Shown in pieces: positions 17,679 to 53,753 of a stretch of DNA of 64,000 bases. Source of the stretch: Nemertoderma westbladi. Lineage: Eukaryota; Animalia; Xenacoelomorpha. The notes beneath the pieces were generated by a model. It made no database searches. It saw only the letters and a program-made list of their open reading frames with translations, and was not told where the DNA came from. A program made the position numbers and the translations under genes. The stretch spans positions 202,330-266,329 of the forward strand of contig JAUCBJ010008896.1 in NCBI GenBank assembly GCA_032718475.1. Direction: 5' to 3'. Positions within the stretch are counted from its first letter, which is position 1. The number at the start of each line of letters is the position of its first letter.

Positions 17679-19018
17679 TTATGGTGCCCCTTCTAGTAGG
17701 CAGCACTTTCCCACAGCCCTCCTGTAGGTCTTCCTATCCTTTGCTCCTATCTTACCCCCTATCCGCACTTCCACCGATCGGACTCTTCTGTCCTCGTTGG
17801 GGTAAGTGTCTACTACTCTTGCTAGCCTCCACTGATTGTTGATGATTGCGTCGTCAGTGACGATCACTAAATCACCTTTCTTTAACTCTCTAGTGATGTT
17901 TCTCCACTTACTCCTCCTGTGTAATGTGGGTAGGTATTCCTCGACCCACCTCCTCCAGTACTCTGCGCTTATCGCCTTGGCGACTTTCCAACTCTGGCGG
18001 GAGTGTATGTCATCTGGGTCTACACCCTTCATGTCGATGGTCGCCGGCCTTTCCATCAGAAAGTGGCTCGGTGTTAGCACGTCTAGTGATTCCGGGTCGT
18101 CATTCTCTGGATATAGCGGTCTGCTATTAATGATTCCCTCACACCTAGCTAGCACCATTCTTAGAATGTCCTCTGTCACCATGTGGGTGTTCATCAACTT
18201 CGTCATCAGACGCTTGGAACTACCCACAAGTCTCTCGACGCATCCTAATGTATGTGACGCATACAGCGTCCTCCTTTCCCACTTCACCTGTCGTCTCCTC
18301 ATGGCTGCCCTGACCTCTTCTCCTTCTAGGATGTCCAAGGCCTCCGCCAACTCGTTCTCCACCCCCACAAAGTTGGTTCCATTGTCGGAATAGATCACTG
18401 CGATCGTCCCACCTTTGCGGTCTCTAAATCTCTCTAAGGCATTGATGAATCCCGATGCCGTAGCGTCCTGGGCGAGTTCTATTCCTACCGCCCTCGTGTT
18501 GTTACATACGAAGATGATGCCGTATCGTTTCTCCATGTGTCGCATCACCTTGATCTTAATCGGCCCAAACATGTCTACTCCGCAGTGCGTGAATGGCGGG
18601 TCATGCTGTCTCACCCTACTGGCCGGTAATGCATCTCCTGTACGGCCCTCTCCTTTCTCTTCCGTCGGCAGGTCTGGCATTGCCCCACTACCGCCTTCAC
18701 CTTCTTTCTTAGCTTCGCGAGCCAGAAGGTCCTCCGTATCTCTGTGTGGGTCTGGTTGGTGCCTCCGTGCAATATCGACTTGTGGGAGTCCCAAATGATC
18801 TGGTGGACTATCAGCGATCTGTTGGGGATGATAATGGGTTTTGGTGGGTTGATAAGGCTGTTGTTATTCAGCACTCTGGAGTTCATCACCAGAATCCCGT
18901 CATCATTGAGTTGTGGTGACAGCGTGATGAGCTCGCTGTCCCGACGAAGATGTTGCTGCTTGCTAACTCGATCCACTTCGTCGCAGCAGTTCTTTCTCTG
19001 TTCGTACCGTATCACGGC
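17679..19018 (-). pseudogene. BEL/Pao integrase (frameshift ~18610)
   Basis: H..HGG..CQTC (HHCC), PFTHCGVDMFGP, SDNGTNFVG, GCVERLVG, INSRPL, LTPSHFL, YWRRW..EYL, WRLARV. Confidence 0.92.
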
Positions 19019-19020
19019 CT

Positions 19021-19562
19021 AAACCACAGCCACAGCCACAGCCACAACCACAGCCACAACCACAACCACAGCCACAGCCACAACCACAGCCACAGCCACA
19101 ACCACAACCACAACCACAACCACAACCACAGCCACAGCCACAACCACAGCCACAGCCACAACCACAGCCACAACCACAGCCACAGCCACAACCACAGCCA
19201 CAGCCACAACCACAACCACAACCACAGCCACAGCCACAACCACAGCCACAGCCACAACCACAGCCACAACCACAGCCACAGCCACAACCACAGCCACAAC
19301 CACAACCACAGCCACAGCCACAACCATAGCCACAACCATAGCCACAACCACAGCCACAGCCACAACCACAACCACAACCACAGCCACAGCCACGGCCACA
19401 GCCACAGCCACAGCCACAGCCACAACCACAACCACAGCCACAGCCACAACCACAGCCACAACCACAACCACAGCCACAGCCCCACAACCACAGCCACAAC
19501 CACAGCCACAACCACAGCCACAACCACAACCACAGCCACAGCCATAGCCCCAACCACAACCA
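19021..19562 (+). repeat. (CCACAG/CCACAA)n hexamer microsatellite
   Basis: Direct inspection. Confidence 0.95.
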
Positions 19563-19960
19563 CTTCCTAGCTCTAGACTGAATCTAGTGTACACTAGCTT
19601 TGACTCTCCCAGCTATAGTGATAGTATGCAACCTTGGGAGTTAATGTGCGGTCTTATGAGTAAAGGGCAAGAGATTAGACTTCATGTTGCCTCCATTGAT
19701 TCACTCTTCTTAACTTTATAAAATAACTCCACCCTTATTTAAAGTTTTAAAAGTTATGACTTAGTCGACTAATTTTCCAAAATATATTATAAAAAACATA
19801 TAATTTCTTGAATAAATAGACCTAATAGCAATAAATATTGTTGGCAAATACATTTATAATACTAATATAATAATTAAGGATAAATACTCCTAATACCAAT
19901 ATAATTGTTATGGATAAATAGTTCTAATACTATTATGAAAGGAACTCAAACAAACAAATG

Positions 19961-21025
19961 TCAATAGTGTCCTCCTGCGCGGGCATATACTGTACGAGAG
20001 TTTTTCATCATAGGTCTTCGAAAATAAGTAAAAGCTGGTTGATTTTCTTTACTTTCATCTTCCTCATTAACCAACTGTTTCTTAATTTTATTCAATTGTT
20101 CATTAATTTTCAGTAATTTACTTTTATTTCCCAGAACCTGTCTTAATATCTCTTCTCTATTTTCCTCATTTTCTTCCATTTGTTTAATAAATTTCCGCAT
20201 TTGATTTTTGTTTCCTAATATTTGTCTCAATATCTCTTCTTTATTTTCATCATTCTCTTCTAAATGTTTAATAAATTTCTGTAATTTAATTTTACTTCCT
20301 AGAACTTGGGTCAATGTCACCTCTTTATTTTCTTCATTTTCCTTCAAATGTTTAATAATTTTCCGCAATTTATTCTTATTTCCAAGTAATTGTCTCAATA
20401 TTTCCTTATTATTATCATTTTCATCATCTTCTTCACTTTCCTGACCTTCACTTTCTTCGTCCTCTTCCTGACCTTCACTTTCTTCGTCCTCTTCCTGACC
20501 TTCACTTTCTTCATCCTCTTTCTGACCTTCACTTTCGTCATCCTCTTCCTGTTCTTCACTTTCTTCATCCTCTTCCTGTTCTTCATTTTCTTCATTCTCT
20601 TCCTGACCTTCGCTTTCTTCACCCTCTTCCTGACCTTCACTTTCTTCGTCATCTTCTGACCTTCATTCTCAACCTCACTCTCTTCAACTTCATCCTGACC
20701 CTCACTATTTTCATTCTCCATCTCATCGTCCTCTTCTTCTTCATCTTCCTCACTCAAATTTTCATCATTTTCTAGGGGTAACTGTTTTTGTATCCCTTTC
20801 AAAATATTCATAACTTTATGAAATTTATTTTCCATTGTCTGTTTTATCTTTAATATATCACGCTCAACTCTCTTTTTCTTTTCTCTTCATAAAAATATCT
20901 CGGATTTTTTAATTTCTTTGGTAATGGTCCATTACACCTTCCTTTCTATGTATACTCATATGGCGGGATATACTGTCTCGTCTCATTTCTTTATTACAAA
21001 CCAAACATCTTTCATAACTAGGCAT
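19961..21025 (-). pseudogene. Zn-finger + acidic/coiled-coil protein, paralog of 24602-25246
   Basis: Starts atgcctagttatgaaagatgtttggtttgt (MPSYERCLVC); near-identical to the 24602 start; frameshifted; repeated ILRQ.LGNK.KL.K units. Confidence 0.75.
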
Positions 21026-21271
21026 TATATAGCAATGTCAATTGATATTATGAATTTTCGCTGAATGATTTTACAAAATTTTAAATAAATAAAACTTTTA
21101 TGAAAATAAATAAAACTTTTAAAAATAAAAATTAGAGAATGAATGGGAATGCGGTGAATGGGGGCTATTATAGAGGGAGGCTAGAATGGAGTTGTGAAAA
21201 AAGAATAATCTATTGTAAACCAGATGTTTCTTGAATTTTTCTCAGGCGTATTTGTCAATAAAGTGGGTGAA

Positions 21272-21480
21272 GGTTGTGGTTGTGGCTGTGGCTGTGGCTG
21301 TGGCTGTGGCTGTGGCTGTGGCTGTGGCTGTGGCTGTGGCTGTGGCTGTGGCTGTGGTTGTGGCTGTGGTTCTGGCTGTGGTTCTGGCTGTGGCTGTGGC
21401 TGTGGTTGTAGTTGTGGCTGTGGCTGTGGTTGTGGCTGTGGTTGTTGCTGTGGTTGTGGCTGTGGCTGTGGCTGTGGTTT
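21272..21480 (+). repeat. (TGTGGC)n microsatellite, inverted relative to 19021-19562
   Basis: Direct inspection. Confidence 0.95.
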
Positions 21481-21979
21481 AGTTAGGATGGGAAATGGGG
21501 TGATTTGAGAAGCAGGGAGTGCGCTGGAGAAAAGTGCGTGTAATGAATGGGCTGCTGCGTCAAAATGGGTATGTTAATTAATGTTATACTACAGTATCTG
21601 AACAAATATTTTAGGTATGGTATAGCAAGCATGAGGGGTTATGCATTACTTCAAACATAAAACTACAGTAACTAGTATAGAGATGGTTGGGGATTAATTT
21701 GACATATGGTATTTGGGTACTGGCTTTGTCGTTGAGCTAATACTTGGAGTGTGCGGTTGGGCGCGCAGGCTGCTTCGCAACACAATGTGAAAGAATGCAA
21801 TCTATTGCAAGACCAGATGTTTATTATAATTTTCTTAGGCGAATTGACAATGGTCTGACATGATAACGAAGCTGGAGGTTTAAATAATTTAAAATGTGTG
21901 CAACCCCATGTTGGCATGCAGTATAACTCAACATGGGATTCAGTGGGATGCTTAATCCTTCACGCATGCCATACCAAAA

Positions 21980-22070
21980 ACTATGTCCTGTTTGAAATGT
22001 TAAGGTGGACCTTTCTATATAAATAAAACCATGTAAAGTTAGATCATTATCTCTAAAAAACATTAAGTGA
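21980..22070 (+). promoter_or_regulatory. Conserved TATA-containing upstream block of the GTSF1-like genes
   Basis: tgtttg..aatgttaaggtgga..tttctatataaataaaa..ca.gtaaagtta.atc lies ~100-130 bp upstream of all three ATGs (also reverse complement at ~32545-32620 and ~33305-33390). Confidence 0.65.
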
Positions 22071-22125
22071 AGTTTTTCAAAGTTTTTTTTAAAGTAAATC
22101 TTACTAAATTTGTCTTTTTGTTACT

Positions 22126-22413
22126 ATGGAGTACTTTATTTGCCCCTATGATGCCACGCACCGGATTCATTCGGAGAAATACGTCAAACATCTAAGAAAA
22201 TGCCGCAAGAACTTTCCTGGCCAAAAAATGGTACAGTGTCCCTTTGAAGTTGCGCATAGCTTTAGAGAAGCCGAAAGGGAACATCATCTACAATTTTGTG
22301 AATACAGAAATAGGAGCTCCATTTTTGAGAAATTAAAAGAAGAGAAAAAAGTGGAGAAGAAAGGAGAAGAAATTGAATGTCCGGCGGCATGGGGAGAAGA
22401 GGTGTGGGATTGA
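22126..22413 (+). CDS. Gtsf1: GTSF1/Asterix-like double CHHC zinc-finger protein, 95 aa
   Basis: CPYDATH-x9-H-LRK-CRKNFP and CPFEVAH-x9-H-LQF-C; C-terminus AAWGEEVWD; intronless and intact. Confidence 0.88.
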   Translation: MEYFICPYDATHRIHSEKYVKHLRKCRKNFPGQKMVQCPFEVAHSFREAEREHHLQFCEYRNRSSIFEKLKEEKKVEKKGEEIECPAAWGEEVWD

Positions 22414-22775
22414 TGTGATGATGCGATTCTCCGCACCCTAGTATAAATTGTTATGTAATTATTATTGGTGTATAAATTGTATGTACTTGGCGATTAATAA
22501 TTGGTGCAGCCATGTATATTGTATTATTGTTCCTATTGTATTGCATATTTCATCTGCTGTAGTACAATCTATTCAACTCGCGTCCCTATCTGATTGATTT
22601 ATGTCAAATTAAATTGCCTTTGGCAACATTATTTGATACAAATCGATTGATTAAACAATTAATTAATTGTTTAATCGACCAATTAATTAATTGTTTAATT
22701 AATTAATGACCTACTTAACACCCAAGGTGTGAAGTTGGACCAAACTGTCGCCGAGGATGGCAAACCATTACTACT

Positions 22776-24258: not shown

Positions 24259-24601
24259 GATAAAGCTCTATTATTGTGAGGGCATCAAGGCATCAACTTA
24301 GTACCGCACCTCACTCCCTAATAAGGGAGTGAGGCAAGTCTCTTGTCATGTTTGCCTAACTTTGTGCCTCACTATACCATGCACAAACCTCACTTAATAA
24401 GCGATAACCTCCCATATATAAATTTCAATTATTAACATTAATCTTTAAACATTAAATTTGAACTATTAATAATGTTCCATCTTCTGATATATATTTACTG
24501 AGATTTATATTTGTAAGTGAATCCCTAGCTAAACAAACTGAAAATTTTGAAAAAATATAGCTGTAGACATTTAAAAACATAATACAGTTTTCTTTCATAA
24601 A

Positions 24602-25246
24602 ATGCCTAGCTATGAAAAATGCATGGTTTGTGATAAAGAATTGAGACGAGACAATATATCCCGCCATATGAGTATACATAGAAAGGAAGGTGTAATGGAA
24701 CCTTCTCCAAAGAAATTAAAAAATAATGATGATATTTTTAGTGAAGATGAGAACAAAAAGAGAGTTGAGAGTGACTTTCTAGAGATTAAATAAATGATGA
24801 AATATAAATTTGAGAAAATCATGAATATTTTGAAAAATATACAGAAACAGCCACCTAGTGAAAAGGATGATGAGAGTGAGGAAGATGATAAATCAGAGGA
24901 AAGTGAAAAGGTTGAGAATGATGAAACAGAGAGTGAGATAGAGGAAGAAGAAAATGAGAGTGGTGATGAACAAAATGAGAGCGAGAAAGAAGTCGAGGAA
25001 CATGAAAGTGGGGAGGAGAATGATGAGGAGATATTAAGACATGTATTAGGAATTAAAAATAAATTGCAGAAAATAATTAGACAATTGAATGAAATGCAGA
25101 AACATTCGCATAAGGAGAGTGATAATGATGGAAATGAGAGTGATGAGGATGAATTGGAGGAGAGTAATGCTGGTAGTGTAGAAGAAGCTGAGGAGAGTAG
25201 CGACGGCAGTGAGGAAGAATCAGAGGAGAATGACAATGAAAATTGA
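24602..25246 (+). pseudogene. C2H2-like finger + highly acidic protein (in-frame stop at ~24791)
   Basis: CMVC..RH..IH, KKLK NLS-like motif, D/E-rich tracts. Confidence 0.7.
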
Positions 25247-25536: not shown

Positions 25537-27645
25537 GATTGATTGATTGATTGTTTATTGTCAGCACAGTAATACATTTATATACATTATTACACCAATA
25601 AAAACATAATACAAGATAAGATCAATGTAGTGCAGACCGTGGGTAAAATAAATAATTATACATTCGAATATAGGCCGTGTGAGACTGATAAGTACGTACA
25701 TAGTAGATTATGTCATTAAAATAGCACAATAAGTTAATAAGGGAGGATATATAAATAAATAATTAATCCACAAATAACTAGCGCCTCGTGAGTGTCCTTC
25801 AAAAATTACAATAGATCAATAAATTATCGAAGCGTAAAATTCAATAATCATTCCCCATTTGGTAAATCATTTTTGCTACATTTATTTGGTCGTCCATGTC
25901 AAATAGGGTGGTCAGATCGTTCCAGTTACCTTTAACCGATAATCTAGATTCCGCCGTTTTTGGGCACACGGTGATGATGTGTTCCTCCGTCTGAACTGCT
26001 CCACATCCACACATTCGATTATCCGGTTTTACTCTCGCCCATCTCATTTTTTCGACTGGAAAGTTATGGCTCCCCAGACGAAACCGGGACCACGCGATTC
26101 GGTGACGTTCTGGAACGTTACAGTTGTTGTAAAGAGGTGGCGGTGACAATGTCGGATTCATCAACTTGTAGAGATGCCGTTTCGTGGTCTTAGATTTAGA
26201 GACACGGTCTTTAAGTAATTCGTTTTGTTTTCTAATGTAGTTCAATGGAATTGATTTAGAGCGTTCCATTTCAGAATACATCGGAGTGTTATTTTCTCTA
26301 GCGATTTCCAGAGCAGTTTGTAAGGGAGAATCATCGACTGGTTTAAATTTTATGAGATACTTCCTCTGTTTATCGCGAATTAGGGACTCAAATTCTGGGA
26401 GGTCGAGTTCGATTAGGCATAATTCCCCGCATGTGGTTGGTCGTACACCTAATAATAAACGAACCAAGGACATATATATTTTAGATATAGGTGCTAGGGA
26501 TCCGCCGAACCATGTTTCACAGCCATATGTGATTGAGGATAAAACAGCTGCTTCGAATACTTTCCGTTTTATAACAAATGGGAGATCGGGGTTTTTACTG
26601 ATAAAAGTAGAGAACTTGAGAAGATGGCACTGTTTCTCGGAGGCGTGTAGTGCGATCGCTGTTGAGATTGCACCATCAGCCGAAATTGGCGAGCCCAGGT
26701 AAGTGTAGGAATCCGTGTGTTCGATTTGTTTGTCTCCGATGGAAAATGCACGCTTGTCACAGTCGTTTCCATTTATAACTATAAATTTAGTTTTTTTGAT
26801 ATTTATAATCATCCCAGACTGGGAGCAAAAGACTTTCAGAACGTTTAATTTCTCAATTATTTTATCTCTGGTTGTACCGAGTATGGCTGTGTCATCCATC
26901 AGTAAAATGCTATGAAGCTTTTTCAACCAATCGTCCCATGGTAAATTTCGTAGTGCTCGTACAAAAAAATCTATTACAATTACAAATAGGAAACCGCTTC
27001 CTGGGGAACCCTGACGGACTCCTTTGTTACAAATTACACGAAGATTGTTAATATTGGCAATAGTTAACTTGTACATCGCTTGGAGGCAGCTGAGCATCTT
27101 ATTACCACATCCTAAACTTTTTAATGTTTGGAACATGAAGGTCCTCTTGACGTTGTCGTATGCTTTCTCGTAGTCCACGAATGTAATATAGAGGATTTTC
27201 TTATACACTTTGGCATAATCACACAGGATACGAATAGCTAGGATCTGTTCAATGCAACCACGCCCTTTACTTGCCCCAGCCTGTTCTGGGAGCGGTTTAT
27301 ACCATGAATGGAGTCTAACAGTGAGCACCGTGTCAAAAAGCTTTGGTAAGCAGTTCATTATACTGATGCCTCTGTAATTAGTTGGTAAGAAACGGCAGCC
27401 CTTTTTGAAAATAGATATCAGTGTAGCGTGGGCCCACATTACTGGGTAGATTCCTGAATTAAAAACTAAATTAAATAGCAGAGATATAGAAATTAACCAA
27501 TTAAGTGGGAGCGCTTTGATGTAATCTGCAGAGAAGACCATCTGGCCCTGAAGCCTTACGTGAACTCAATTTTGAAGCAGCAGCTGCAACTTCGTTAATT
27601 GATATCTCTTCATCTAATAGTGGTATTGACAAATTTGTTGTAATG
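25537..27645 (-). mobile_element. 5'-truncated RTEX-like LINE with (CAAT)n tail
   Basis: ORF 25841-27541: NYRGISI, FVDYEKAYD, GVRQG, LMDD, YLG, RFRLGSH..CGC..EEH..C. AATAAA and (caat)n at 25537-25560 on the minus strand. Confidence 0.88.
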
Positions 27646-27663
27646 TTGTGAGGGAGAAGTGGC

Positions 27664-29597
27664 CTCACTCACTCACTCTCTCACTCTCTCAATCTCTCAC
27701 TCTCTCACTCTCTCACTCTCTCACTCTCTCAATCTCTCACTCTCTCACTCTCTCACTCTCTCACTCTCTCACTCCCTCACTCCCTCACTCCCTCACTCCC
27801 TCACTCCCTCACTCCCTCACTCCCTCACTCCCTCACTCCCTCACTCCATCACTCCCTCACTCACTCACTCACTCACTCACTCACTCACTCACTCCCTCAC
27901 TCCCTCACTCACTCACTCACTCACTCACTCACTCACTCACTCACTCACTCACTCCCTCACTCACTCACTCACTCACTCCCTCACTCCCTCACTCCCTCAC
28001 TCCCTCACTCCCTCACTCCCTCACTCCCTCACTCACTCACTCACTCACTCCCTCACTCCCTCACTCCCTCACTCCCTCACTCACTCACTCACTCACTCAC
28101 TCACTCACTCACTCACTCACTCACTCACTCACTCACTCACTCACTCACTCTCTCACTCTCTCACTCTCTCACTCCCTCACTCCCTCACTCCCTCACTCCC
28201 TCACTCCCTCACTCCCTCACACCCTCACTCCCTCACTCCCTCACTCCCTCACTCCCTCACTCCCTCACTCACTCACTCACTCACTCACTCACTCACTCAC
28301 TCACTCACTCACTCACTCACTCACTCACTCCCTCACTCCCTCACTCCCTCACTCACTCACTCACTCACTCACTCACTCACTCACTCACTCACTCACTCAC
28401 TCACTCACTCACTCACTCACTCACTCACTCACTCACTCACTCACTCACTCACTCACTCACTCACTCACTCACTCACTCACTCACTCACTCCCTCACTCCC
28501 TCACTCCCTCACTCCCTCACTCCCTCACTCCCTCACTCCCTCACTCCCTCACTCCCTCACTCCCTCACTCCCTCACTCCCTCACTCCCTCACTCCCTCAC
28601 TCCCTCACTCCCTCACTCCCTCACTCCCTCACTCCCTCACTCCCTCACTCCCTCACTCCCTCACTCCCTCACTCCCTCACTCCCTCACTCCCTCACTCCC
28701 TCACTCCCTCACTCCCTCACTCCCTCACTCCCTCAATCCCTCACTCCCTCACTCCCTCACTCACTCACTCACTCTCTCACTCACTCACTCACTCACTCAC
28801 TCACTCACTCACTCCCTCCCTCACTCCCTCACTCCCTCACTCCCTCACTCCCTCACTCCCTCACTCCCTCACTCCCTCACTCCCTCACTCCCTCACTCCC
28901 TCACTCCCTCACTCCCTCACTCCCTCACTCACTCACTCACTCACTCCCTCACTCCCTCACTCCCTCACTCCCTCACTCACTCACTCACTCACTCACTCAC
29001 TCACTCACTCACTCACTCACTCACTCACTCACTCACTCACTCACTCACTCACTCACTCACTCACTCACTCACTCACTCACTCACTCACTCACTCACTCAC
29101 TCACTCCCACCCTCACTCCCTCACTCCCTCATTCCCTCACTCACTCCCTCACTCCCTCACTCCCTCACTCCCTCACTCACTCACTCACTCACTCACTCAC
29201 TCACTCACTCACTCACTCACTCACTCACTCACTCACTCACTCACTCACTCACTCACTCACTCACTCACTCACTCACACACTCACTCACTCACTCACTCAC
29301 TCACTCCATCACTCACTCACTCCATCACTCACTCACTCCCTCCTTCACTCCCTCACTCCCTCACTCCCTCACTCCCTCACTCCCTCACTCCCTCAATCCC
29401 TCACTCCCTCACTCCCTCACTCCCCCACTCCCTCTCTCCCTCAATCCCTCACCCCCTCACTCCCTCATTCCCTCACTTACTCACTCCCTCACTCCCACCC
29501 TCACTCCCTCACTCCCTCACTCACTCCCTCACTCCCTCACTCCCTCACTCCCTCAATCCTTCAATCCCGCACCCCATCACTCCCTCACTCACTCCCT

Positions 29598-29670
<73 letters not shown>

Positions 29671-29720
29671 CCCTCACTCCCTCCCTCCCTCCCTCCCTCC
29701 CTCCCCCACTCCTGCCTCAC
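27664..29720 (+). repeat. (CTCA)n/(CTCACTCC)n/(CT)n microsatellite
   Basis: Direct inspection. Confidence 0.97.
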
Positions 29721-31122
<1,402 letters not shown>

Positions 31123-32196
31123 ATTAAAACACTTCTTATTAGTGAATGTTTTCGCCCTAACCGGGCTACTTCAGACTATAATGCAGTATTAGGAATGTAT
31201 ATAGTTAAAATTATTGCATCCCACCACCAAATCAATATTCCCTCTCTTTTATAATATTGGGTTCTGTCATAAACTAATAAGGGTACGTAAATAGCATAAA
31301 TGGAGAGAAATAGAAATATATATACAGTAGTTTAACTAGAACTATCATTATTAAATAAGGAACAGAAACATCATTAAATGAAAATAAAGTAAATACCAGA
31401 TATAGACTAGTTAGTTAGGTTATACAGTAGGCTTTAGAGATAGCATGGTTACTTCCAACGTATTGTGCACAAATACAAAACAGAAACCTCCGGATGGTGA
31501 AAAACGCAGAGTACAACGGCATTAATAGTAATAGATCTATGCGCAAATAGACAAAAACACAATAAAAATATACTTATAATGTGTACAGTAGGGTGAGAAA
31601 ACGGTTTATGGTAAGGTTATTAAATGTCAAAAAATTGAAAAATTAATTCAATGATACAGTATATATTGTCCAATTGGATTGACAACCAAAAATATAGAAT
31701 ACAATAAACAAATTATAAGACAGCATGATACACTACCTACTAATTGTTGGTGCTGGCGTACATAGCAGACTCAATATTCACAAAGAGAACTATAATCAGT
31801 ACAGTGATTTACTGAGGTACCATTGACAGTTAAAATTTCGCGGTCTGAGGAACGCCATGTAAAACAAAAAAATTAATATTTTTTACATTAATGCACATCC
31901 CTGAACTATCACAAAAATACAAAGACAATAATAATAGTGCGGTTTATACGTTGTGGTAAAAGGCAAATATCGAAATCGAGAAATGTTACCCTTACAACAA
32001 AAAGCAAGTATCGAAATATAATGTGTATCGAAATCCCATTATACTGTTAGTGTGTTGTACAAACAATCCTTATGGCGAAAGGTTAATATTGAAGACGAAA
32101 TATATAATGTGTTTAAGGGTATATGCGCTATACAGTACACGGTATTAAATAGGGTTTAGAATAATAGGGTCTAATCAATCCATTCCAAACTAATGA

Positions 32197-32460
32197 TCAG
32201 CCCCACACCTCTTCTCCCCATGCCGCTGGCCGTTTAATCTCTTCTTCTTTCGAATTTTCGAAAAGGGAACTCCTATTCCTATACTCGCAATATTTTATGT
32301 GGTGTTCCCTTTCGGCTTCTCTGAAGCTGTGTGCATTTTCAAATGGGCATTGTACCATTTTTTTGCTAGGAAAGTTCTTCCGACACTTTCTTATATGTTT
32401 CACATATTTCTCTGAAAGAATCCTATGTGTGGCATCGTATGGGCATATAAGATAATCCAT
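32197..32460 (-). CDS. Gtsf1: GTSF1-like double CHHC protein, 87 aa
   Basis: CPYDATH..KHIRKCRKNFP, CPFENAH..HHIKYC, AAWGEEVWG; close paralog of 22126. Confidence 0.88.
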   Translation of the reverse strand: MDYLICPYDATHRILSEKYVKHIRKCRKNFPSKKMVQCPFENAHSFREAEREHHIKYCEYRNRSSLFENSKEEEIKRPAAWGEEVWG

Positions 32461-32873
32461 AGTGCCAAAAAGAGAAATTTAATAGGATTTAATTTAAAAG
32501 AAAACTTTGTTTTGGAAAACTTAACTTTAACGTTTTTTAGAGATAATGATTTAACTTGATATGATTTTTATTTATATAGAAAGGTCCACCTTAACATTTC
32601 AAACAAGGCCGTAGTTTTTGGCATGGCATGCGTGAGGGATTAAGCAGTACATAAAACTGCGGTAGTAGAGGCGGTTGAGGATTAATTTAATGGAGACAAC
32701 ATATCAAATATGTCTGTCCTTCCCATTGTCCCTATAGCTCGCATTAGCTCTATTGCTCCCAAAACTACAATAAATTGCATTAATTAATAAAGATTTTAAT
32801 AATAATATTTTTACAGTACTAAACCAAACCAAAACAAAACAAACTAAACTAAACCAAACCTAGTCCATCAGTC

Positions 32874-33206
32874 TCAATCCCAAGCTTCTTCTCTCCATTC
32901 CGTCGGCCATTCGCATTGTTCTTGTTCTTGTTGTACTTTTCCCTCATTCTCTCCATATTGATTCTTTAACTCTTTCTCAATTCTGAACTCATGAGCTTGC
33001 CAACATAGTGGTAACCCATTCCTATAATGACAATTCTTTATGTGAAACTCCTTTTCTTCTTTTGGAAAACTGTGCACTGGATCGTTGGGGCACTCTTTGA
33101 CAAACTCAACCCCCGGCTTTCTACATATTATTAGATGCCTAAGCACTCGAGCATCGGCGACTCTGTGGGAAGGGTTGTAAGGACATATTTGATATGTCAC
33201 CTCCAT
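32874..33206 (-). CDS. Gtsf1: GTSF1-like double CHHC protein, 110 aa (divergent paralog)
   Basis: CPYNPSH..RHLIICRK, CPNDPVH..FHIKNC, tail EWPTEWREEAWD. Confidence 0.85.
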   Translation of the reverse strand: MEVTYQICPYNPSHRVADARVLRHLIICRKPGVEFVKECPNDPVHSFPKEEKEFHIKNCHYRNGLPLCWQAHEFRIEKELKNQYGENEGKVQQEQEQCEWPTEWREEAWD

Positions 33207-34157
33207 TGTTAGTTTCTATATTTAAGAATAACGTGTTGTAGAATAAGAATAAGAATAAGATTTTACTAGGAATATTAAGAAGTTTTACTAAGGCAGTAAA
33301 AACAATTAAGATTTAACTTTACGTGATTTTTATTTATATAGAAAAATCCACCTTAACATTTAGCACACCACAAACAAGGCCGTAGTTTTAGGTATGGTAT
33401 GGCAAGCACTAGGGATTATGCATTACTTCAAACATAAAACTACAGTATCTAGTATAGAGATGGTTGGGGATTATTTTAACATATGGTTTTTTGGGTAGGG
33501 CTAATACTTGGAGCGTGCGATCATGCGTGCAGGATGCTTCATAAAGTACAATGTGAAAGAATTCAATCTATTGCAAACCAGATGTTTATTGTAATTTTCT
33601 CAGACGATTTGACAATGGTCTACATGATAACGAAGCTGGAGGTTTGAATAATTTAAAATTCGTGGCAGCCCCATGTTGGCATACAGTATAACTCAACATA
33701 GGATTCAATGGGATTAGTCATGCTACGTCTAATAAGAGCCCAAACAGTCTCAGATTATTGGGGGACTGAGCCAAGGCCAAACTGGCCCACATATTTTCCT
33801 GAAACGGTAATTTATGTTTTTGGCCCCGCTCGCATCTTTATATTTCATTCTATCATTCTATTGTACGAAAAAAATAATACAAATGTACTGTATATTGTAT
33901 TGTATGGTACCTATTGTATTGTATATTTTATCTACTGTACCTACTGTAGTACTACTATCTATTCATTGCGCGTCCCATGTCTGATTGATTTGTGTCAAAT
34001 TAAATTGCCTTTGACAACATTATTTGATTCAAATCGATCGATTAAACAATTAATTAATTGTTTAATCGACCAATTAATTAATTAATTAATGACCTACTTA
34101 ACACCTAAGGTGTGAAGTTGGTCCAACTGTCGCAGAAAAGGGGTAACCATTACTACT

Positions 34158-35538
34158 CAGTACTATTTGGATAATGACAGCCCAATTTATATTTGTTTTA
34201 TAGACTCTTCTAAAGCCTTCGACTTAGTTAATCACTATGAATTATTCTCTAAATTAGTTGATCGCAATATTTCTACTTTTCATATTAGGATTATCAGGTA
34301 TTGGTATCGTTTTCAAACTCTTACTTTACTTTGGGGCAGGTGCACTTCTAGTAGTTTTACGGTAACAAACGGGACAAAACAAGGGGGGATTCTATCTGGT
34401 TATCTGTATGCTGTTTACGTAGACGACCTTAGTAGGGAACTTAACAATACTAATGTAGGTTGTCAACTTAATAACCGTAGGTGTAAGTAATCACTTAATG
34501 TACACTGATGACCTGTCTTTAGTTTCTAATTCCATAGCTGGTCTTAGAAAACTTATTGATACTTACATAGACTTTGCAGATAGGCACTCCATCATTATAA
34601 ATATTAAGAAATCTAAGTTCATGACCTATACACCAAAATTATACAATTTATATATATATATATAGCCTTGTAGATGGTATCAGTATTTAATGGTAAATCA
34701 ATAGAAACTGTAAGTAAATACAAGTACTTAGGCCATACTTTCCACAACACAACTGATGACAATTATAATATCCTTAACCAACTGTCAAGTCTTTATAGAA
34801 GAGGAAACTTTTTAATACGTAAATTTAGCTATTGCTCAAAAATTGTCAACATAAAACTTTTCAGGTCACTTTGCACTCAGATCTACTGTAACTCCCTATG
34901 GGCGAGAAGTAATTTTTCACTCTCCATATATAGTAAATTCCGCATTGCATATAATAATATTATTAGAAAACTTTTTGGTTTTAGTTACGATTCCAGCGTA
35001 TCTTACATGTGTGGTATACTGAATGTACCCAAATTAGTACATATCTGTCACAATGCGCAGAAATCATTATTGAGATGCATGAGATCATCAGAGAATAGCC
35101 TTGTACAGTCAGTTGCCTTAGAAACGCTTCAAACGAGTCACATATTTGGTATAAGTCTGTGCAGGGAATAATTTGCTTACAGTTCTTATATTGTTATGTG
35201 TTATGTTATAGTTATTTTATTGTCCTTTGTTCTAATATTATATATTTTCCATAATTATACCTATTATACCCTCTATATTTATTATATTATATACTTACAC
35301 CCTTTTAGTATAAATTTCTAGTATAAATAATACTTAACATTTGCATTTATTTTTATTTTTTTTTTTTGTCCTTGCTCGGATATTTTCTTGTTTCCCTTCC
35401 GTTGTAATTATTACCTATTATATTATATTATAATTATTATGTTATAATTATACTACAAATATTATTATCTAGCCACTGGGATTTTACTGTACTATATGGG
35501 CTATGTATGCCTGGATTAAAGATTAATAATAATAATAA
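34158..35538 (+). mobile_element. CR1/L2-group LINE, right piece with 3' UTR and (AAT)n tail
   Basis: FIDSSKAFDLV, NGTKQGGILS, YTDDL, KYLGH, RIAYNN; ends gattaataataataataa, where polB resumes. Confidence 0.85.
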
Positions 35539-37164: not shown

Positions 37165-37484
37165 ATTATACTAACTATATTATACTAATATACGTGTAGC
37201 GTATATTAGACTGATTTGAATATATAGGCCGGCTACCGGTTTTACGGCAGTCTGGTTAGATTGGACTGGCAGAACCGTTCCATCATTACATATGGCGCAG
37301 TTTCAGTACTTACCTACTTGCCCATGCAGTACTGCACTTTGTACACGGCCTAACTCACAACTCTGCAATTGCTACCGCACTTTATTCATATTACCTTAAT
37401 AAATAATATCGGCAATTAATTTCGTAATAAACTATTTCTGTATTTGCTGATACCGTGATACGGATATTTGATATTGGATAGGCT

Positions 37485-40400
37485 ATGGCAAGAGCAAACG
37501 ACAACCGCGACCCATTCTCCTTCATTCTACGAAACTCGCCACCCCCATTCGACCTGGAATCGGAATGCTCCACCTGGGAGCTGTGGCAAGACGAGTGGGA
37601 CACTTTCCTTGTCACCTCTGGACTTGGAAACTTACACGTCACTGACTCAGCCGATCCACCTGACCCAACCGTATCGGCAGCTCTTCTAGCGGCAACAAAC
37701 CGCATACGGCGGGCAACTCTGACCACCGCCTTCTCCCGCGCAACGAACGCAGTCGTCAAGGGTTTGGGCCTGTCCGCCATCGACAACGCAGACACCGATG
37801 TTATCATCCAACATCTCGGCGTCCATATCGACGGCGGGACCAATAAACGCATCCACCGGCAGGAACTGTCGCGCCGATCCCGCCTACTTGAGGAAACTCC
37901 TGAGACATTCCTAGTTAACCTCCGGGATATCGCTTCGAAATGCGGATTCGAGGCACTCCCGACTCCGGATGCCCATCGCAACGACAGACTGCTCGACCAA
38001 TTTATCGCCGGCTTCGGCGATAAAGAGGTTACTGAGCACCTACTCTGGCTCCCCGCAGGAAGTTCGATCACCGATGCCCTCAACCTCGCCCAAACCGTGT
38101 GGACCGCGCGGAAGGATGCAGCCTCACTCTCCTTCTCCTCCACACCGGCACCTACGGCAGCTAAGGCGGAGGCAAAGTCGGATAAACGACGGAAAGGGAA
38201 CCGGAGCCCTCGCTCCAACGCTATCCCAACAGGCCTGACCTGCACCAAATGCGGCTATCCCCCACACGGACCGGGCCAATGTTGCCCCGGTACGGACGCG
38301 CGGTGCCGCCACTGTAAACTGGTCGGACACTACGACAGGATGTGTCCCAGACCCTTCCCCCCACAGGCCCACGCAGCGGCCGCACCCCCGGCACCATGCT
38401 ACATGGAGGACCACACCGCAACCAACAATGCCAAAGTCTGGTCGGTCCTGGTTGGAACCGAACTCGAGAACGCCCCGGTTGTTTCATCAACCGAACAACT
38501 CGAATCACTAGAGACCGTCACCCTGGGCTTCCAAGTCTACAAGAACCCGGCATTTGGAATTCCGGAACTCCAGTTTCTTTCGGACTCTGGGGCCAACATC
38601 TCGGCTATTCCGTTCTGGTTATTCACCGCGTTTGGTGGACAGATCGGAAACCTCCGCAAACCCTTCCCCAATCCACAAGCCCCGAAACTCGCCAACGGCA
38701 GCCGGACTGGATGGGAATTCAAGGGACTGTTCACCGCTACGATCCAGTGCCACGACCTCCACACCGCCTGTACAACCGACATCTGGGTGCTGGAGGGACT
38801 CCAGCAGCCACTCCTGTCCCGCAAGTCCTGCTTTACCCTAAGGATTCTCAGCAGCCCAATCCTTAGAGGCGGGTCGCCTGCACCCCCTGTCGTGGCGTCC
38901 TCCACAGGCCCCACCACACCGCCACCGACAGAGCTTACTACCCCATCCAAAGCTACAATTACCACACCCACCGTAGACCGTGATATAGCTTGGCGGGCCC
39001 TGGAAACCCGCTTCCCGCGCCCCCTATCGGGTGTCTGCAGGGTGATGAAGGGTGGGGACATTACTATCAAACTCACTCTGGGCGCGAAACCTAAAAACTC
39101 ATACGCCAATAGGGCCATCCCAGCGAACCTAGAGGAGGCCTTCAACAGGGAACTGGATGAACAGGTGGCCATGGGGATTCTAGAACCAGCCAACGACGAA
39201 AACTGCCCCAGCGACTGGCTGAGCCCCATGGTTATTACCCGTAAAAAAGATGGTGAATCGGTCCGAATTACCGTCGACCTCCGGGAACTCAACCTGAACA
39301 CCGTCCGCCCAACCTACTTCTCCCCATCCCCGTTCCATGTCGTTTCGCGGATCCCGCCCACCGCCGGTGTATTCACCGTTATAGACGGATTAAAGGGGTT
39401 CCACCAGGTCAACTTGGACCCCCGGAGTCGGGGTCTTACAACATTCATCACACCGCGAGGCCGCTACCGCTACTGCCGCATGCCCATGGGCTGGCACGGC
39501 AGCTCGGATTTTTTTAATGCCCGCATGGCCCATGCACTCCGGGGGATCCCCAACATCGGCCGCATCGTGGAGGACATTATAATTTACACGGAAATAGCGG
39601 AGGAACACAACAACGCAGTAGCCAAAGTCCTGACTGCCTGCGACGAGGCCGATATATCCATAAACCCGAAGAAGGTGCAGTTCTGCCTTCCAGAGGTTAA
39701 ATTCGGTGGATATATCGTCTCCAAAGGGCAATACCACATCGACCCAGACCTCACCGAGGACCTCCGCCAATTCCCGGTCCCCACGAACCGACACCAACTT
39801 CGGTCGTTCTTCGGCCTAGCCCAACAGTTGGGCAACTCCACGGCCGAGATCACCCGCCTCGTGGAACCACTACGTGGGTTGAACTCAAGCCGCACAGCTT
39901 GGTTGTGGCTCCCCGAACACCAGGCGGCGTTCGAGGCCACCCGGTCCGCGCTGTCTGCCCCCCACTACTTGTCCGGTTTCCAGCTGGACCGCAGAACCGA
40001 GCTGCTCACCAACGCCTCCTATCTCAACGGACTTGGTTTCCTCCTCCGGCAGTGGGATTCGGCCATGAACCGCTGGCTAACGGTCCAGTGCGGCTCCCGG
40101 ACCCTCGCCAAACACGAGGCCAACTGGTCCGGGATGGCCGAGCTGGAGGCCCTCGGGGCGGCCTGGGCGGCCCACAAGTGCCGCTACTTTCTCGACGGCC
40201 TCTGTCATTTCGATCTCGTAACCGACTGCAGCCCCCTGATACCGATTCTAAACGAGCGACGGTTGGATCAAGTCACGAATGACTGGTTATTAAAACTCAA
40301 AACGGCTTTATCACGGTTTTCCTTCACCGCCCGACACCAGAAGGGGGCTAAACACGTGGTTGCTGATGCCTTCTCCCGGGCCGCAATCCACCCCCCGGTC

Positions 40401-40520
40401 CCCACCGACTTAATCCTGACCCAGGAAGACGAGACGGACCGCGAATACATAATAAATGCGGCCATCGGCGCGATCCCAACCCTCGACTCCCGGGACGCCT
40501 GTCTCCAGGTAATTCGTGAG
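37485..40520 (+). CDS. Gag-Pol (Gag with CCHC, protease, RT, RNase H)
   Basis: CRHCKLVGHYDRMC, LSDSGANIS, VRITVDLRELN, RMPMG, IVEDIII, LRSFFGL, TNAS, ELEAL, ADAFSR. Confidence 0.9.
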
Positions 40521-41870
40521 GCGGGACAACGCATACCGCGCCCTCCTCGCCACCATCACCGAGGGCTGGCCCACGTCAAAACACGATGTCACCAACGACT
40601 GGGTCCGCCCCTATTACCAGTTCAGGTGTGACCTGATGGCCCAAGACGGGCTCATACTACGTGGTCCCCAACTATACATACCAACTGAGATGCGGGCCAA
40701 TACACTCAGCCAACTCCATGCCTCGCACCAGGGCCTTAACAAAACTCGGGAACGGGCCAACCGGGCAGTCTGGTGGCCCACCATCGCGAATGATGTGAAA
40801 CAGGCTGTTGAACGCTGCCAGTCGTGTCAGACAGTCCTCCCATCCCACGCCCCCGAGCCACTGCAACACAACCCAGATGCCACCCGACCGTTCCAGCGCG
40901 TCCACGTGGACCTCTGCGTAGTGACCGCCATGAACTACCTCGTCTGCACGGACGAGTACACGGGCTGGCCCACACTATTTCGCCTCGGCACGGACACCAC
41001 ATCGGGGGCGATTATTCCCTGCCTCCGACGTCTCTTCCTCGCCACCGCCGTTCCAACCATCCTACACCCAGATGGCGGCCCGCAACTCGTGTCGGACGCG
41101 GTGCGCCAGTTCCTCCAGCGCTGGGGAGTACGTCTGGAGCCATCCAGCCCCCACCTACCTCGTACAAACGGACGAGCGGAGGCGGCCGTGAAGGCCATGA
41201 AGAAAATTATCAGTGGAGCTAACCACGACTCTGACGGCATCACACAGGGCATCCTCGCATTCCGGAATACACCACATTACGGCGGCCGGTCCCCAGCGGA
41301 ACTCCTGTACGGGAGGAACATCCGCGAGGCCCTCCCCGCCCACTTCTCATCGTTCGACCCAAAATGGCGCGGCACTTTTCGGGAGCTCGACGAAATCGCC
41401 GCCGAAAACTCAGCCGAGCTGCGCGCTCTACGACTGCCACACACGCCCCCTACGCGCGCTCTCCATTGGCCAACCAGCCCTCATTCAGTGGCACCGTGGT
41501 GGAGGTCCTCCCCAACCACGATTATCTCGTGCGCCAAGAAAGCGGTCGTACCGTCCGGCGCAACCGCGTCCTCCTCCGGGTCCGGAATTTTGCAGCGCCC
41601 CCCAGCGGCCAACCACCGCAACAACCCACTCCGACGCCACAGCCACCGTTACCCGTACGCACGACCCTGACCTCACCAGCCCTGCCGCGACCAACTTGGG
41701 CACACATTGCGGGGCACACAACCACCACCCCGCCAGTCGCAGACCACAGCCAACCAACACCAGACGGCTCGGTCTCGATGCCAGAAGCACCCTACACCTC
41801 CAGGTCTGGGAGGGCAGTCAGGCCCCCATCGCGCTATGCGAATAGTGACTATAGTAAACAATCCAATTAG
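40516..41870 (+). pseudogene. Gypsy integrase (frameshifts ~40520 and ~41420)
   Basis: LHASHQG..CQSCQ, PFQRVHVD, DGGPQL, NGRAEAAVK, SPAELLYGR, RRNR, TSRSGR. Confidence 0.88.
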
Positions 41871-52726: not shown

Positions 52727-53110
52727 TTACCGTCCACAGTTAATTCTTTTCGCAATAGCTGCCACAGCGGCAGCGGCACCAGCCCCCGCAGCGAGTTTCG
52801 TGCCAATGCCGAGTAGGGGTGTTAGAAATGGAAGTATACCACCAGATTGATTGGTTAACTTTTTTCTGTAACTTGATATATTTTTTGCTTTGCGATTGAG
52901 TGATTTTAATACCTTTTTATAACGACGAATATTTCTAAATAAATGAGGGGTCAATTGTACATTACCTTTTAGAACATTTAAAGCTGTATTTACAATGAGA
53001 CGTATTAATTCCTTACTCGCGCTATAATTAATAAAATAAGTTCTTTGTTGAGGGGTGGCGCTGCGTAAAAATTCCAATTCGTTACGATATTTCTGCGCAA
53101 GTCTATTCAT
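52727..53110 (-). CDS. Conserved Polinton small basic protein with QxGG motif (putative protease-processed virion protein)
   Basis: ALNVLKGNVQL..RKKL.NQSGGILPFL.PLL; lies next to the ATPase. Confidence 0.75.
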   Translation of the reverse strand: MNRLAQKYRNELEFLRSATPQQRTYFINYSASKELIRLIVNTALNVLKGNVQLTPHLFRNIRRYKKVLKSLNRKAKNISSYRKKLTNQSGGILPFLTPLLGIGTKLAAGAGAAAAVAAIAKRINCGR

Positions 53111-53152
53111 TGTTGCGACATTATTTAAAATTTTTACAAAATATGAATATTA

Positions 53153-53184
<32 letters not shown>

Positions 53185-53189
53185 CACTA

Positions 53190-53753
53190 CGTTTATAGTC
53201 AATGTAATTTTTAATGTAACAATTATGATTACGAAATATATCCGATCTAAATCTTAAATGTTCCGGTGTTTCCTGACGTAAATCAATTAAGAAATGTGAA
53301 TAGTCGCATGCCCGGGTAACATTTGCTTCGCGAAATTTAAAACCAATAAACTATCTCGCGGATTTTTCATTAATACTAAGGTATGGCTATTAATTGATCT
53401 GTACAGTTATGCTTCCCACCGTAAAACATGTTTTGCGTTATGAAACAAATAAATATATTGGAATGATGAGCAACCTTAGTAAATAATACAGTTAAGGCTG
53501 TACTGGACTCAGTTTCTTTTAATAAATCGTCTATAATTAATAAATCTCGACTATTTACTAAACTATCTATATTTTCGGGTAAACCTTTGTAAAGGTGGGT
53601 AATACCAGGAATAGTTGGGGGATTGCTCCCGTAACAATACAATACTCGCAAGGATGATTCGTTGAAGCAACCATTCTTGTGTTTGATTAAGTTGCCGACA
53701 AAGGTAGATTTACCTGAACCGGATGGACCTGAAATAATCATACTCGTTCCCAT
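53190..53753 (-). pseudogene. A32/FtsK-like genome packaging ATPase
   Basis: GPSGSGKST (Walker A), LLIIDDLL (Walker B), FTK.AHH..ITQN; frameshifted tail FLIDL..TPEHLRFRSDIF. Confidence 0.88.

What the first reader, a model, noticed from the sequence alone, without database searches (positions are those of the whole stretch)
32197..33206. GTSF1-like proteins trimmed to fingers plus an acidic W-x4-W tail, in two divergent subtypes
Seen: all three proteins end directly after WGEEVW(D/G) or WPTEWREEAWD. All Cys/His ligands and the CRK motif are kept while the linkers diverge strongly, which suggests purifying selection. The W-x4-W spacing resembles the PIWI-binding tryptophans of vertebrate GTSF1 (recalled, not aligned). 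One subtype has Lys and the other Arg at the first-finger basic position, which could mean different PIWI or RNA partners.
Basis: partly seen in the sequence, partly recalled or inferred. Interest (0 to 1): 0.8.

Follow-up and report, generated by a model that had tools for sequence, protein, structure and literature searches.

The report
Three minimal GTSF1-like zinc-finger genes
Three small intronless genes in a transposon-rich stretch of an animal genome encode cut-down versions of GTSF1, the zinc-finger helper of PIWI proteins, that stop right at the family's conserved tryptophan-aspartate motif; they likely act like the short silkworm paralogue Gtsf1L, so this is a new member of a known kind.

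Summary
Three intact ORFs (A 22126-22413 +, 95 aa; B 32197-32460 -, 87 aa; C 32874-33206 -, 110 aa) each carry two CHHC fingers (Pfam zf-U11-48K). Their best solved relatives are mouse GTSF1 (6x46) and the GTSF1 chain of the SIWI-piRNA-target-GTSF1-Maelstrom complex (9nhc).

All three end at W-x4-W-(D/G)-stop. A and B are 82% identical; C is about 40% identical to both.

In a 150-sequence family alignment the last Trp falls in a column that is Trp in 124 of 150 sequences and is followed by Asp or Glu. That column is mouse W107, one of the three PIWI-binding tryptophans, and silkworm GTSF1 W103. The W-x4-W pair therefore does not match mouse W107/W112, and the Trp at -5 is lineage-specific.

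A versus B gives pN 0.08 against pS 0.69. DNA contigs show many further paralogues, with 28 of 40 listed variant sites at third codon positions and none listed in the last eight codons.

Short forms ending at W-D exist elsewhere (5 of 121 hits). Silkworm Gtsf1L, whose terminal W99 binds Vreteno and helps Ago3 binding, is the closest known case.

Expression and partner are untested: no RNA run was listed and no host PIWI sequence was available. Verdict: real genes, likely PIWI cofactors, modest novelty.

The parts
22126..22413 (+). Gene A: 95-aa GTSF1-like protein (CDS with stop); fingers C6-C26 and C38-C58; tail C85-P-A-A-W89-G-E-E-V-W94-D95
32197..32460 (-). Gene B: 87-aa GTSF1-like protein (CDS with stop), same subtype as A (82% identical); tail R77-P-A-A-W81-G-E-E-V-W86-G87
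32874..33206 (-). Gene C: 110-aa GTSF1-like protein (CDS with stop), divergent subtype (about 40% identical to A and B); tail W100-P-T-E-W104-R-E-E-A-W109-D110
22378..22410 (+). Tail motif of A (codons 85-95); last Trp aligns with family W-D column (mouse W107)
32200..32232 (-). Tail motif of B (codons 77-87); variant contigs read Trp instead of Arg77 (32232 G>A)
32877..32909 (-). Tail motif of C (codons 100-110) with three Trp at -9, -5 and 0
21995..22025 (+). Conserved TATA-containing block about 100 nt upstream of the ATG of A (predicted core promoter)
   Evidence: (3 matches in window, 0 expected), I11
32569..32599 (-). Same TATA block upstream of B; 40 nt identical to A's
   Evidence: (I11)
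33331..33361 (-). Same TATA block upstream of C (2 differences)
   Evidence: (I13)
21949..22125 (+). Conserved upstream non-coding region of A (86.7% identical to B's over 181 nt, above the 81% of the CDS)
   Evidence: (I1)
21609..21949 (+). Dispersed repeat E (about 340 nt, inverted-repeat ends) abutting the promoter of A; further copies at 33386-33714 next to C, 32606-32700 (partial) next to B, and fragments near 56770-56899 with no finger gene beside them

Best explanation
These are three intact, intronless paralogous genes for minimal GTSF1-family proteins, which likely act as cofactors of PIWI proteins. Shown by the calls or the sequence: each protein has two N-terminal CHHC zinc fingers with the GTSF1 fold. 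A short, variable, acidic linker follows. The protein ends at a W-P-x-x-W-x-E-E-x-W-(D/G) tail whose last Trp-Asp is the family's conserved central Trp-Asp. The genes are under purifying selection. They belong to a larger multi-copy family in this genome, and each has the same TATA-containing upstream block. Inferred from the family: the fingers would contact RNA on a target-engaged piRNA-PIWI complex. The terminal Trp motif would dock the protein onto PIWI, or onto a Tudor scaffold that holds PIWI, and so speed piRNA-guided target cleavage as GTSF1 and silkworm Gtsf1L do. The two subtypes would serve different PIWI paralogues, as the GTSF paralogues of mouse and silkworm do.
For: Family and fold:
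- Pfam zf-U11-48K matches twice in each protein.
- phmmer to the PDB gives mouse GTSF1 6x46 at E 8.9e-13 and GTSF1 chain 9nhb_E at 6.2e-10, against 0.0048 for U11-48K.
- The AF2 model has mean pLDDT 80.2, with the finger blocks at 89-96. Its two best Foldseek hits are 6x46 (E 4.7e-04) and 9nhc_E (E 1.2e-03), the SIWI-piRNA-target-GTSF1-Maelstrom complex; 6x46 alone has E at or below 0.001.

Tail:
- MAFFT alignment of 147 library hits plus the 3 window proteins puts the last Trp of A, B and C in a column with Trp in 124 of 150. The next column is Asp in 94 and Glu in 22.
- The profile consensus '...seenwdd' aligns to mouse ...SDEDW107D and silkworm ...SDENW103DD.
- Mouse W98A/W107A/W112A weakens binding to MIWI piRISC more than 60-fold (KD 8 nM vs 500 nM; Arif preprint, passages read).
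- BmGtsf1L W99A abolishes Vreteno binding and lowers Ago3 binding (PMC10711660, passages).
- Gtsf1L activates BmAgo3 cleavage (title and abstract in the listing; passages on binding, specificity and AlphaFold-Multimer read, PMC9808576).

Selection:
- A vs B gives pN 0.082 and pS 0.69.
- Among contigs of three DNA runs laid on A, 28 of 40 listed variant sites are third codon positions. None is listed in 22390-22413.
- Variant contigs change C85 (A) and R77 (B) to Trp, which gives the -9 Trp that C and mouse W98 have.

Whole protein rather than a first exon:
- The stop follows W-(D/G) in all three copies.
- 5 of 121 hits with the Trp also end within 3 residues of it, among them a Manduca sexta protein.
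- tblastn with 108 post-Trp tails of relatives finds nothing downstream of the genes.

RNA-binding ridge: of mouse R26, R29, K36 and K39, A and B keep basic residues at 3 of 4 positions and C at 2 of 4.
Against: No expression evidence: the one run search listed no holder on record as RNA. No host PIWI, Tudor or other partner sequence was available, because no genome is held, so binding is untested. The tail is modelled at low confidence (pLDDT 55-70). The basic ridge of finger 1 is incomplete, most so in C. [quoted passage not shown] The Trp at -5 has no counterpart in characterised GTSF1 proteins. The taxon is not determined. The best identities are only 50-53% over the 57 finger-region residues, to Octopus proteins.
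Confidence: 0.62

Rival explanations
1. The proteins are real GTSF1-family members, but their terminal Trp motif mainly docks on a non-PIWI partner. Candidates are an extended Tudor scaffold, as with Vreteno for silkworm Gtsf1L, or an RNA-dependent RNA polymerase, as with RRF-3 in nematodes. Any effect on PIWI would then be indirect or absent.
For: BmGtsf1L W99 is essential for Vreteno eTD1 binding and only enhances Ago3 binding. Nematode GTSF-1 is rewired to RRF-3, and very short forms exist there, such as the 95-aa form of T. spiralis. The window proteins end at the Trp motif like Gtsf1L.
Against: The nematode proteins lack the aromatic residues that these proteins keep. The same Trp column is the PIWI-binding W107 in mouse. 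A Tudor partner and a PIWI partner do not exclude each other.
Confidence: 0.18
2. The copies are selfish or transposon-linked. In this reading a truncated GTSF1 was amplified together with repeat E, or is used by an element, and acts as a decoy that occupies PIWI without activating it.
For: The genes are multi-copy (44-71 contigs laid per run, several variants per site). They are intronless. Each abuts the end of dispersed repeat E. The neighbourhood is rich in transposons: BEL/Pao, Gypsy-type pol, LINE reverse transcriptases and a Polinton-type ATPase.
Against: E also occurs without a finger gene (56770-56899), and no E-type end lies downstream of any ORF. So the genes are not inside an E element. 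Similarity between copies is confined to the CDS and promoter while synonymous sites are near saturation. This fits old duplicates under selection rather than recent transposition. Fingers, basic residues and the Trp motif are kept as in active cofactors such as Gtsf1L.
Confidence: 0.07
3. The ORFs are not complete functional genes. They would be dead retrocopies, or first exons of longer GTSF1 genes whose remaining exons lie elsewhere.
For: There are no introns, no RNA evidence, and the proteins are much shorter than most relatives (median 159 residues after the Trp in 121 hits).
Against: pN/pS is about 0.12 between A and B and paralogue variation is biased to third positions (28 of 40). All three frames are intact. 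The stop codon follows the same motif in all three despite saturated synonymous divergence. The shared TATA block lies about 100-130 nt upstream with no intervening ATG seen in A's leader. A possible GT donor before the stop in A and B is absent in C. No tail-like coding sequence lies downstream. Short full-length relatives exist.
Confidence: 0.06

Closest known systems
Bombyx mori Gtsf1-like (BmGtsf1L), the short GTSF paralogue that partners BmAgo3 and Vreteno
   Same: Two N-terminal CHHC fingers followed by a short disordered tail (39 aa in BmGtsf1L). The conserved Trp followed by acidic residues (W99-D100-D101) lies in the C-terminal motif at the end of the protein (PMC10711660). It is one of several paralogues with distinct PIWI preference (PMC9808576). 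A 98-aa Manduca sexta protein ending ...DDEDWDN aligns in the same way.
   Different: Orthology is not shown; the window proteins are only about 30-50% identical to any library hit. The window tails carry one or two extra Trp (at -5, and -9 in C and in variant copies). They end one residue after the Trp. The genes are intronless and multi-copy. No partner data exist.
Mouse GTSF1 (PDB 6x46) and its paralogues GTSF1L and GTSF2
   Same: Same tandem CHHC fingers (E 8.9e-13; Foldseek top hit). Basic residues are kept at 3 of 4 (A, B) or 2 of 4 (C) RNA-binding positions. The last Trp aligns with W107, and copy C's Trp at -9 has the W98-W107 spacing.
   Different: The mouse protein continues beyond W107, with W112 among the residues that follow. 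The window proteins stop at the W107-D108 equivalent, so the W-x4-W of the window is not W107-x4-W112.
Bombyx GTSF1 in the SIWI-piRNA-target-GTSF1-Maelstrom cryo-EM complexes (9nhb, 9nhc, 9nhd, 9nhs)
   Same: Fingers match at E 6.2e-10, and the Foldseek alignment spans 99 columns. The ...SDENW103DD motif aligns with the window's ...EEVW-D.
   Different: That chain is 149 aa, with a conserved region after the Trp motif that the window proteins lack. I did not see the paper or the coordinates, so which residues touch SIWI is not known to me.
U11-48K and TRM13 CHHC fingers
   Same: The same Pfam zinc-finger type (PF05253).
   Different: In the solved U11-48K chains only a single finger stretch matches, within a 339-aa protein (8r7n_F). 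Matches to the window proteins are much weaker (E 0.0048 and 0.066 for A). The window proteins are small and two-fingered.

Membership tests
GTSF1/Asterix family | Two tandem N-terminal CHHC (U11-48K-type) zinc fingers in a small protein | tested here: met
   PF05253 matches in two stretches in each of A, B and C. All eight ligands are invariant. C6, H12, H22, C38 and H44 are invariant and C26, H54 and C58 nearly invariant across 65 aligned family members.
GTSF1/Asterix family | Fold of the solved GTSF1 finger domain | tested here: met
   AF2 model of A has pLDDT 89-96 over residues 1-60. The two best Foldseek PDB hits are 6x46 (E 4.7e-04) and 9nhc_E (E 1.2e-03); the third has E 0.21.
GTSF1/Asterix family | Conserved aromatic (Trp-acidic) motif in the region after the fingers, used for PIWI binding | tested here: met
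   The last Trp of A, B and C lies in a column with Trp in 124 of 150, followed by D (94) or E (22). This column equals mouse W107 and silkworm W103.
GTSF1/Asterix family | Basic RNA-binding ridge on finger 1 (mouse R26, R29, K36, K39) | tested here: inconclusive
   A and B have H/L15, K18, K25, K28 (3 of 4 basic). C has A17, R20, I27, K30 (2 of 4). From the alignments; residue list.
GTSF1/Asterix family | Binds a PIWI protein and accelerates piRNA-guided cleavage or silencing | not testable with these tools
   No genome is held, so no host PIWI sequence was available. No complex job was sent.
GTSF1/Asterix family | Germline expression | not testable with these tools
   No holder on record as RNA among the 6 runs listed.
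Short Gtsf1L-type paralogues | Protein ends at or just after the Trp-acidic motif | tested here: met
   The stop lies one residue after the Trp in all three. The same holds within 3 residues in 5 of 121 library hits. BmGtsf1L W99-D101 lies in its C-terminal motif.
Short Gtsf1L-type paralogues | Orthology with lepidopteran or mosquito Gtsf1L | not tested
   No tree was built, because about 60 alignable positions would not resolve it. Best identities are to Octopus, tunicate and tick proteins, not to insects.
U11-48K / TRM13 | Single CHHC finger inside a larger snRNP or tRNA-methyltransferase protein | tested here: not met
   The proteins have two fingers and are 87-110 aa in total. U11-48K matches are weak (E 0.0048 and 0.066 for A).

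The most novel reading that the evidence does not exclude
This genome carries a lineage-specific burst of perhaps dozens of minimal GTSF1 genes. Each is driven by the same repeat-abutting TATA promoter and ends in a multi-tryptophan WPxxWxEExWD tail, while the fingers diversify fast (C is as far from A and B as proteins of other phyla are). This would be an arms-race family. Either it is a panel of PIWI activators tuned to different PIWIs or targets, or some copies are decoys that transposons exploit to blunt piRNA silencing.
Probability: 0.12. Interest if true: 0.7.

Novelty: new member of a known kind. Interest (0 to 1): 0.32.

Why it matters
GTSF1 is the factor that lets PIWI proteins cut their targets, and its tail is thought to set which PIWI it serves. 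Natural minimal versions that stop exactly at the conserved Trp-Asp show how little of the tail selection keeps. They also give compact test proteins for asking what the Trp motif and the fingers each contribute. A multi-copy, fast-diverging family would add a case of piRNA-pathway gene expansion outside the usual model animals. The gene kind, the short architecture and paralogue specialisation are already described, so the gain is incremental.

Tried and rejected
- Word-index protein search with A found no candidate. The exhaustive HMM search replaced it: 1069 hits at E<=1e-3, 44 at <=1e-10, none at <=1e-30. No close relative of these proteins is therefore in the library.
- Whole genome of the window: none is held, so no copy census and no host PIWI.
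- Sequencing runs: no RNA holder listed among 6 runs. X5 laid no contig. Depths are not used as copy numbers.
- Metagenome scan: 2 loci (L001, L002) at 29% identity. L001 is a GC-rich ORF that looks bacterial and happens to contain ...PAEWGEEVWT..., with no fingers, so it is a chance match. L002 was not read. Viral contigs gave 71 pattern matches and no relative.
- Earlier-findings look-ups by place and by sequence were empty.
- Rfam at gathering threshold and ARAGORN over the whole window found nothing, so repeat E is not a recognisable tRNA- or RNA-derived element.
- My acidic-Trp regex found the motif in only 82 of 147 two-finger hits. The alignment-based count (121 of 147 hits) is the better figure.
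- W-x4-W as a family feature is rejected. Only 2 of the 82 regex-positive hits have W-x4-W-[DEGN], in another register.
- I considered the genes as cargo of an element bounded by E-type ends. This is rejected because no such end lies 3' of any ORF.
- Hidden downstream exon: tblastn of 108 relatives' post-Trp tails against the window gave no hit downstream of the genes. The only nearby hits lie inside the finger ORFs. Sensitivity for short disordered exons is low.
- The paper behind 9nhb-9nhs was not found in the library. What the Trp touches in that structure is therefore not known to me.
- No tree was built.

Full report
**What is there.** The window looks like animal DNA and is AT-rich and full of repeats: GC is about 0.30-0.36 in the background, with satellite blocks and transposon ORFs. 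A six-frame scan for a loose C..H..H..C pattern gave 16 matches. Tandem CP-type CHHC finger pairs occur at three loci only:
- A: 22126-22413 (+), 95 aa
- B: 32197-32460 (-), 87 aa
- C: 32874-33206 (-), 110 aa

The finding's coordinates cover B and C. Each ORF starts at an ATG a few codons after an upstream stop. Only 5-7 residues precede the first Cys.

**Family.** Each protein matches Pfam zf-U11-48K in two stretches (E 6.9e-13, 3.3e-12, 3.1e-08).
- Against PDB sequences, A hits mouse GTSF1 (6x46_A, E 8.9e-13) and a 149-aa GTSF1 chain (9nhb_E, 6.2e-10). This is far ahead of U11-48K (0.0048). C gives the same order at weaker E-values.
- An AF2 model of A, built from a 65-sequence alignment, has mean pLDDT 80.2, with 89-96 over the fingers and 55-70 over the tail.
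- Its two best Foldseek hits in the PDB are 6x46 (E 4.7e-04) and 9nhc_E (E 1.2e-03). The latter is titled 'SIWI-piRNA-target(49-nt)-GTSF1-Maelstrom complex'.
- The language-model atlas also returns only CHHC/GTSF1-like clusters.

**No close relatives in the libraries.** The exhaustive HMM search of 1.84 billion representatives gave 1069 hits at E<=1e-3, 44 at <=1e-10 and none at <=1e-30. The word-index search found nothing.
- The best profile hit is a tick protein (P0001, Ixodes scapularis).
- The best identities over the 57 finger-region residues are 50-53%, to Octopus proteins.
- Tunicate proteins also rank high.

I do not name the taxon.

**The tail.** All three proteins stop one residue after W-x4-W...CPAAWGEEVWD...RPAAWGEEVWG and ...EWPTEWREEAWD.

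I aligned the finger-to-tail part of 147 of the 150 listed hits with the three window proteins. Three hits were dropped because my regex found no adjacent finger pair.
- The last Trp of A, B and C falls in a column that is Trp in 124 of 150 sequences.
- The next column is Asp in 94 and Glu in 22.
- The same column holds the Trp of a coelacanth GTSF1 (P0002...PCEEDWD), a Drosophila tropicalis GTSF1 homologue (P0034...TTWDD) and a 98-aa Manduca sexta protein that ends ...DDEDWDN.
- HMMER alignments show that this is mouse ...SDEDW107D and silkworm GTSF1 ...SDENW103DD.

The chain numbering of 6x46 agrees with the residue numbers used in the literature: W at 98, 107 and 112, and R26, R29, K36 and K39.

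Mouse W98, W107 and W112 are the PIWI-binding residues. The triple alanine mutant binds MIWI piRISC more than 60-fold less tightly (Arif et al. preprint, passages read).

- The window's last Trp is W107, and there is no W112 equivalent.
- The Trp at -5 is specific to this lineage; only A and B have Trp in that column of 150.
- Copy C also has Trp at -9, the W98-W107 spacing.
- Variant DNA contigs turn C85 of A and R77 of B into Trp at that same -9 position (22380 T>G; 32232 G>A).

The commoner family tail in this genome is therefore probably W-P-x-x-W-x-E-E-x-W-(D/G).

**Is the short form real?** Several lines of evidence say it is.
- Among 121 hits with the Trp, the median number of residues after it is 159. 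Five end within 3 residues and seven within 10.
- Silkworm Gtsf1L is described as two CHHC fingers plus a short tail of 39 residues. W99, D100 and D101 lie in its C-terminal motif, and the authors model 'the last 5 residues'. W99A abolishes Vreteno binding and weakens Ago3 binding (PMC10711660, passages).
- Gtsf1L binds and activates BmAgo3, while Gtsf1 serves Siwi (PMC9808576; abstract, passages).
- A 95-aa GTSF-1 restricted to the fingers is reported for Trichinella spiralis (PMC13650160, passages).
- In the window, the stop follows the motif in all three copies.
- A GT that could serve as a donor before the stop in A and B is absent in C.
- tblastn with 108 post-Trp tails of relatives finds nothing downstream of the genes.

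**Selection and copy number.** A vs B gives pS 0.69 (32.5 of 47 sites) and pN 0.082 (17.5 of 214). A/B vs C is saturated at synonymous sites, with pN 0.34.

Three DNA runs from two studies hold the locus (word shares 0.43-0.52). None is on record as RNA, and one of them may be the window's own sample.
- Their contigs laid on B and C number 71, 48 and 49 for X1, X2 and X3, and 0 for X5. On A they number 44, 49 and 50.
- Many differ from the window by 1-20%, with up to 8 variant contigs at one site. So the genome holds further paralogues. I do not convert depth into copy number.
- Of the 40 variant rows listed over A, 28 are third codon positions, 6 first and 6 second.
- None of the listed rows lies in 22390-22413 (W89 to the stop). 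Eight further rows were not shown by the tool.

**Upstream region.** All three genes share a block, AAATGTTAAGGTGGAyyTTTCTATATAAATA. It occurs exactly three times in the window, against 0 expected. It lies about 100-130 nt before each ATG.
- A and B share 40 identical bases there (I11) and 86.7% identity over 181 upstream bases.
- That exceeds the 81% identity of their CDS (I1), even though synonymous sites are near saturation.

I read this as a constrained TATA promoter and leader, which is an inference.

Directly upstream lies the end of a dispersed repeat of about 340 nt (E) with inverted-repeat ends: 21609-21949, 33386-33714 and, in part, 32606-32700. E-like fragments also occur without a finger gene at 56770-56899. 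No E end lies 3' of the ORFs. So the genes sit next to E, not inside it.

**Mechanism.** The committed reading is that these are PIWI cofactors of the Gtsf1L type.
- Shown: fingers, fold, tail alignment, selection and paralogy.
- Inferred from the family: finger 1 contacts RNA (basic residues at 3 of 4 mouse positions in A and B, 2 of 4 in C). The terminal Trp-acidic motif docks on PIWI and/or a Tudor scaffold. Cleavage by target-bound piRISC is accelerated. The subtypes serve different PIWIs.
- Untested: expression, partner and activity.

The Lys18/Arg20 difference is real but conservative, and it carries no weight for partner choice.

**Novelty.** This is a new member of a known kind. Multiple GTSF paralogues with PIWI specificity, and a short paralogue ending at the Trp-acidic motif, are both in print. 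The extra tryptophans, the exact stop after W-D, the intronless multi-copy state and the shared repeat-abutting promoter are variations worth a note. They are not a new system.

My literature searches did not turn up the paper behind 9nhb-9nhs. I cannot say what the conserved Trp contacts in that structure.

Noticed in passing
window 27517-31250: About 3.7 kb of tandem satellite with an 8-base period (some 12-base steps). It reads as long SLTPSLPH-type pseudo-ORFs in several frames and has extreme GC skew (-0.9).
   Followed up: no
window 20063-21030 and 24597-25117: An inverted repeat pair (76-87% complementary) encoding acidic E/D-rich pseudo-ORFs flanks a 3.6-kb segment that contains gene A. 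It could have mediated the inversion of A relative to B and C, or it could be the arms of a foldback-type element.
   Followed up: partly
window 21609-21949, 33386-33714, 32606-32700, 56770-56899: Dispersed repeat E of about 340 nt with imperfect inverted-repeat ends (MITE-like). It has no Rfam or tRNA match. Its end abuts the promoter of each GTSF1-like gene, in opposite internal orientation in A compared with B and C.
   Followed up: partly
window 22513-22775 and 33889-34157: An 83% identical direct repeat lies downstream of gene A and, at the other locus, beyond repeat E on the far side from gene C. It runs into a LINE reverse-transcriptase fragment (34116-35171). The two loci share flanking repeats in a different order.
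   Followed up: no
window 37482-41667: Long open pol ORFs of an LTR retrotransposon in a GC-rich (0.59) island. One of 1049 aa has RT and RNase H; an overlapping one of 385 aa has the integrase zinc-binding and core domains.
   Followed up: no
window 17682-18863 (-): ORF with DUF5641 (E 8e-24) and a weak integrase core match.
   Followed up: no
window 53379-53795 (-): P-loop ORF with weak matches to AAA_29 and the poxvirus A32 packaging ATPase (E about 3e-4). This may be a Polinton/Maverick-type element together with the unassigned ORFs at 52730-56627.
   Followed up: no
window 25844-27565 (-): 574-aa ORF with a reverse transcriptase domain (RVT_1, E 3e-29).
   Followed up: no
window 18920-19612 and 21184-21573: Long (CA)n/(GT)n-type dinucleotide microsatellites that generate spurious long ORFs.
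   Followed up: no
L001 874-1017: A GC-rich metagenome ORF that looks bacterial contains ...PAEWGEEVWT... by chance. This shows that the tail pattern alone is not diagnostic without the fingers.
   Followed up: yes
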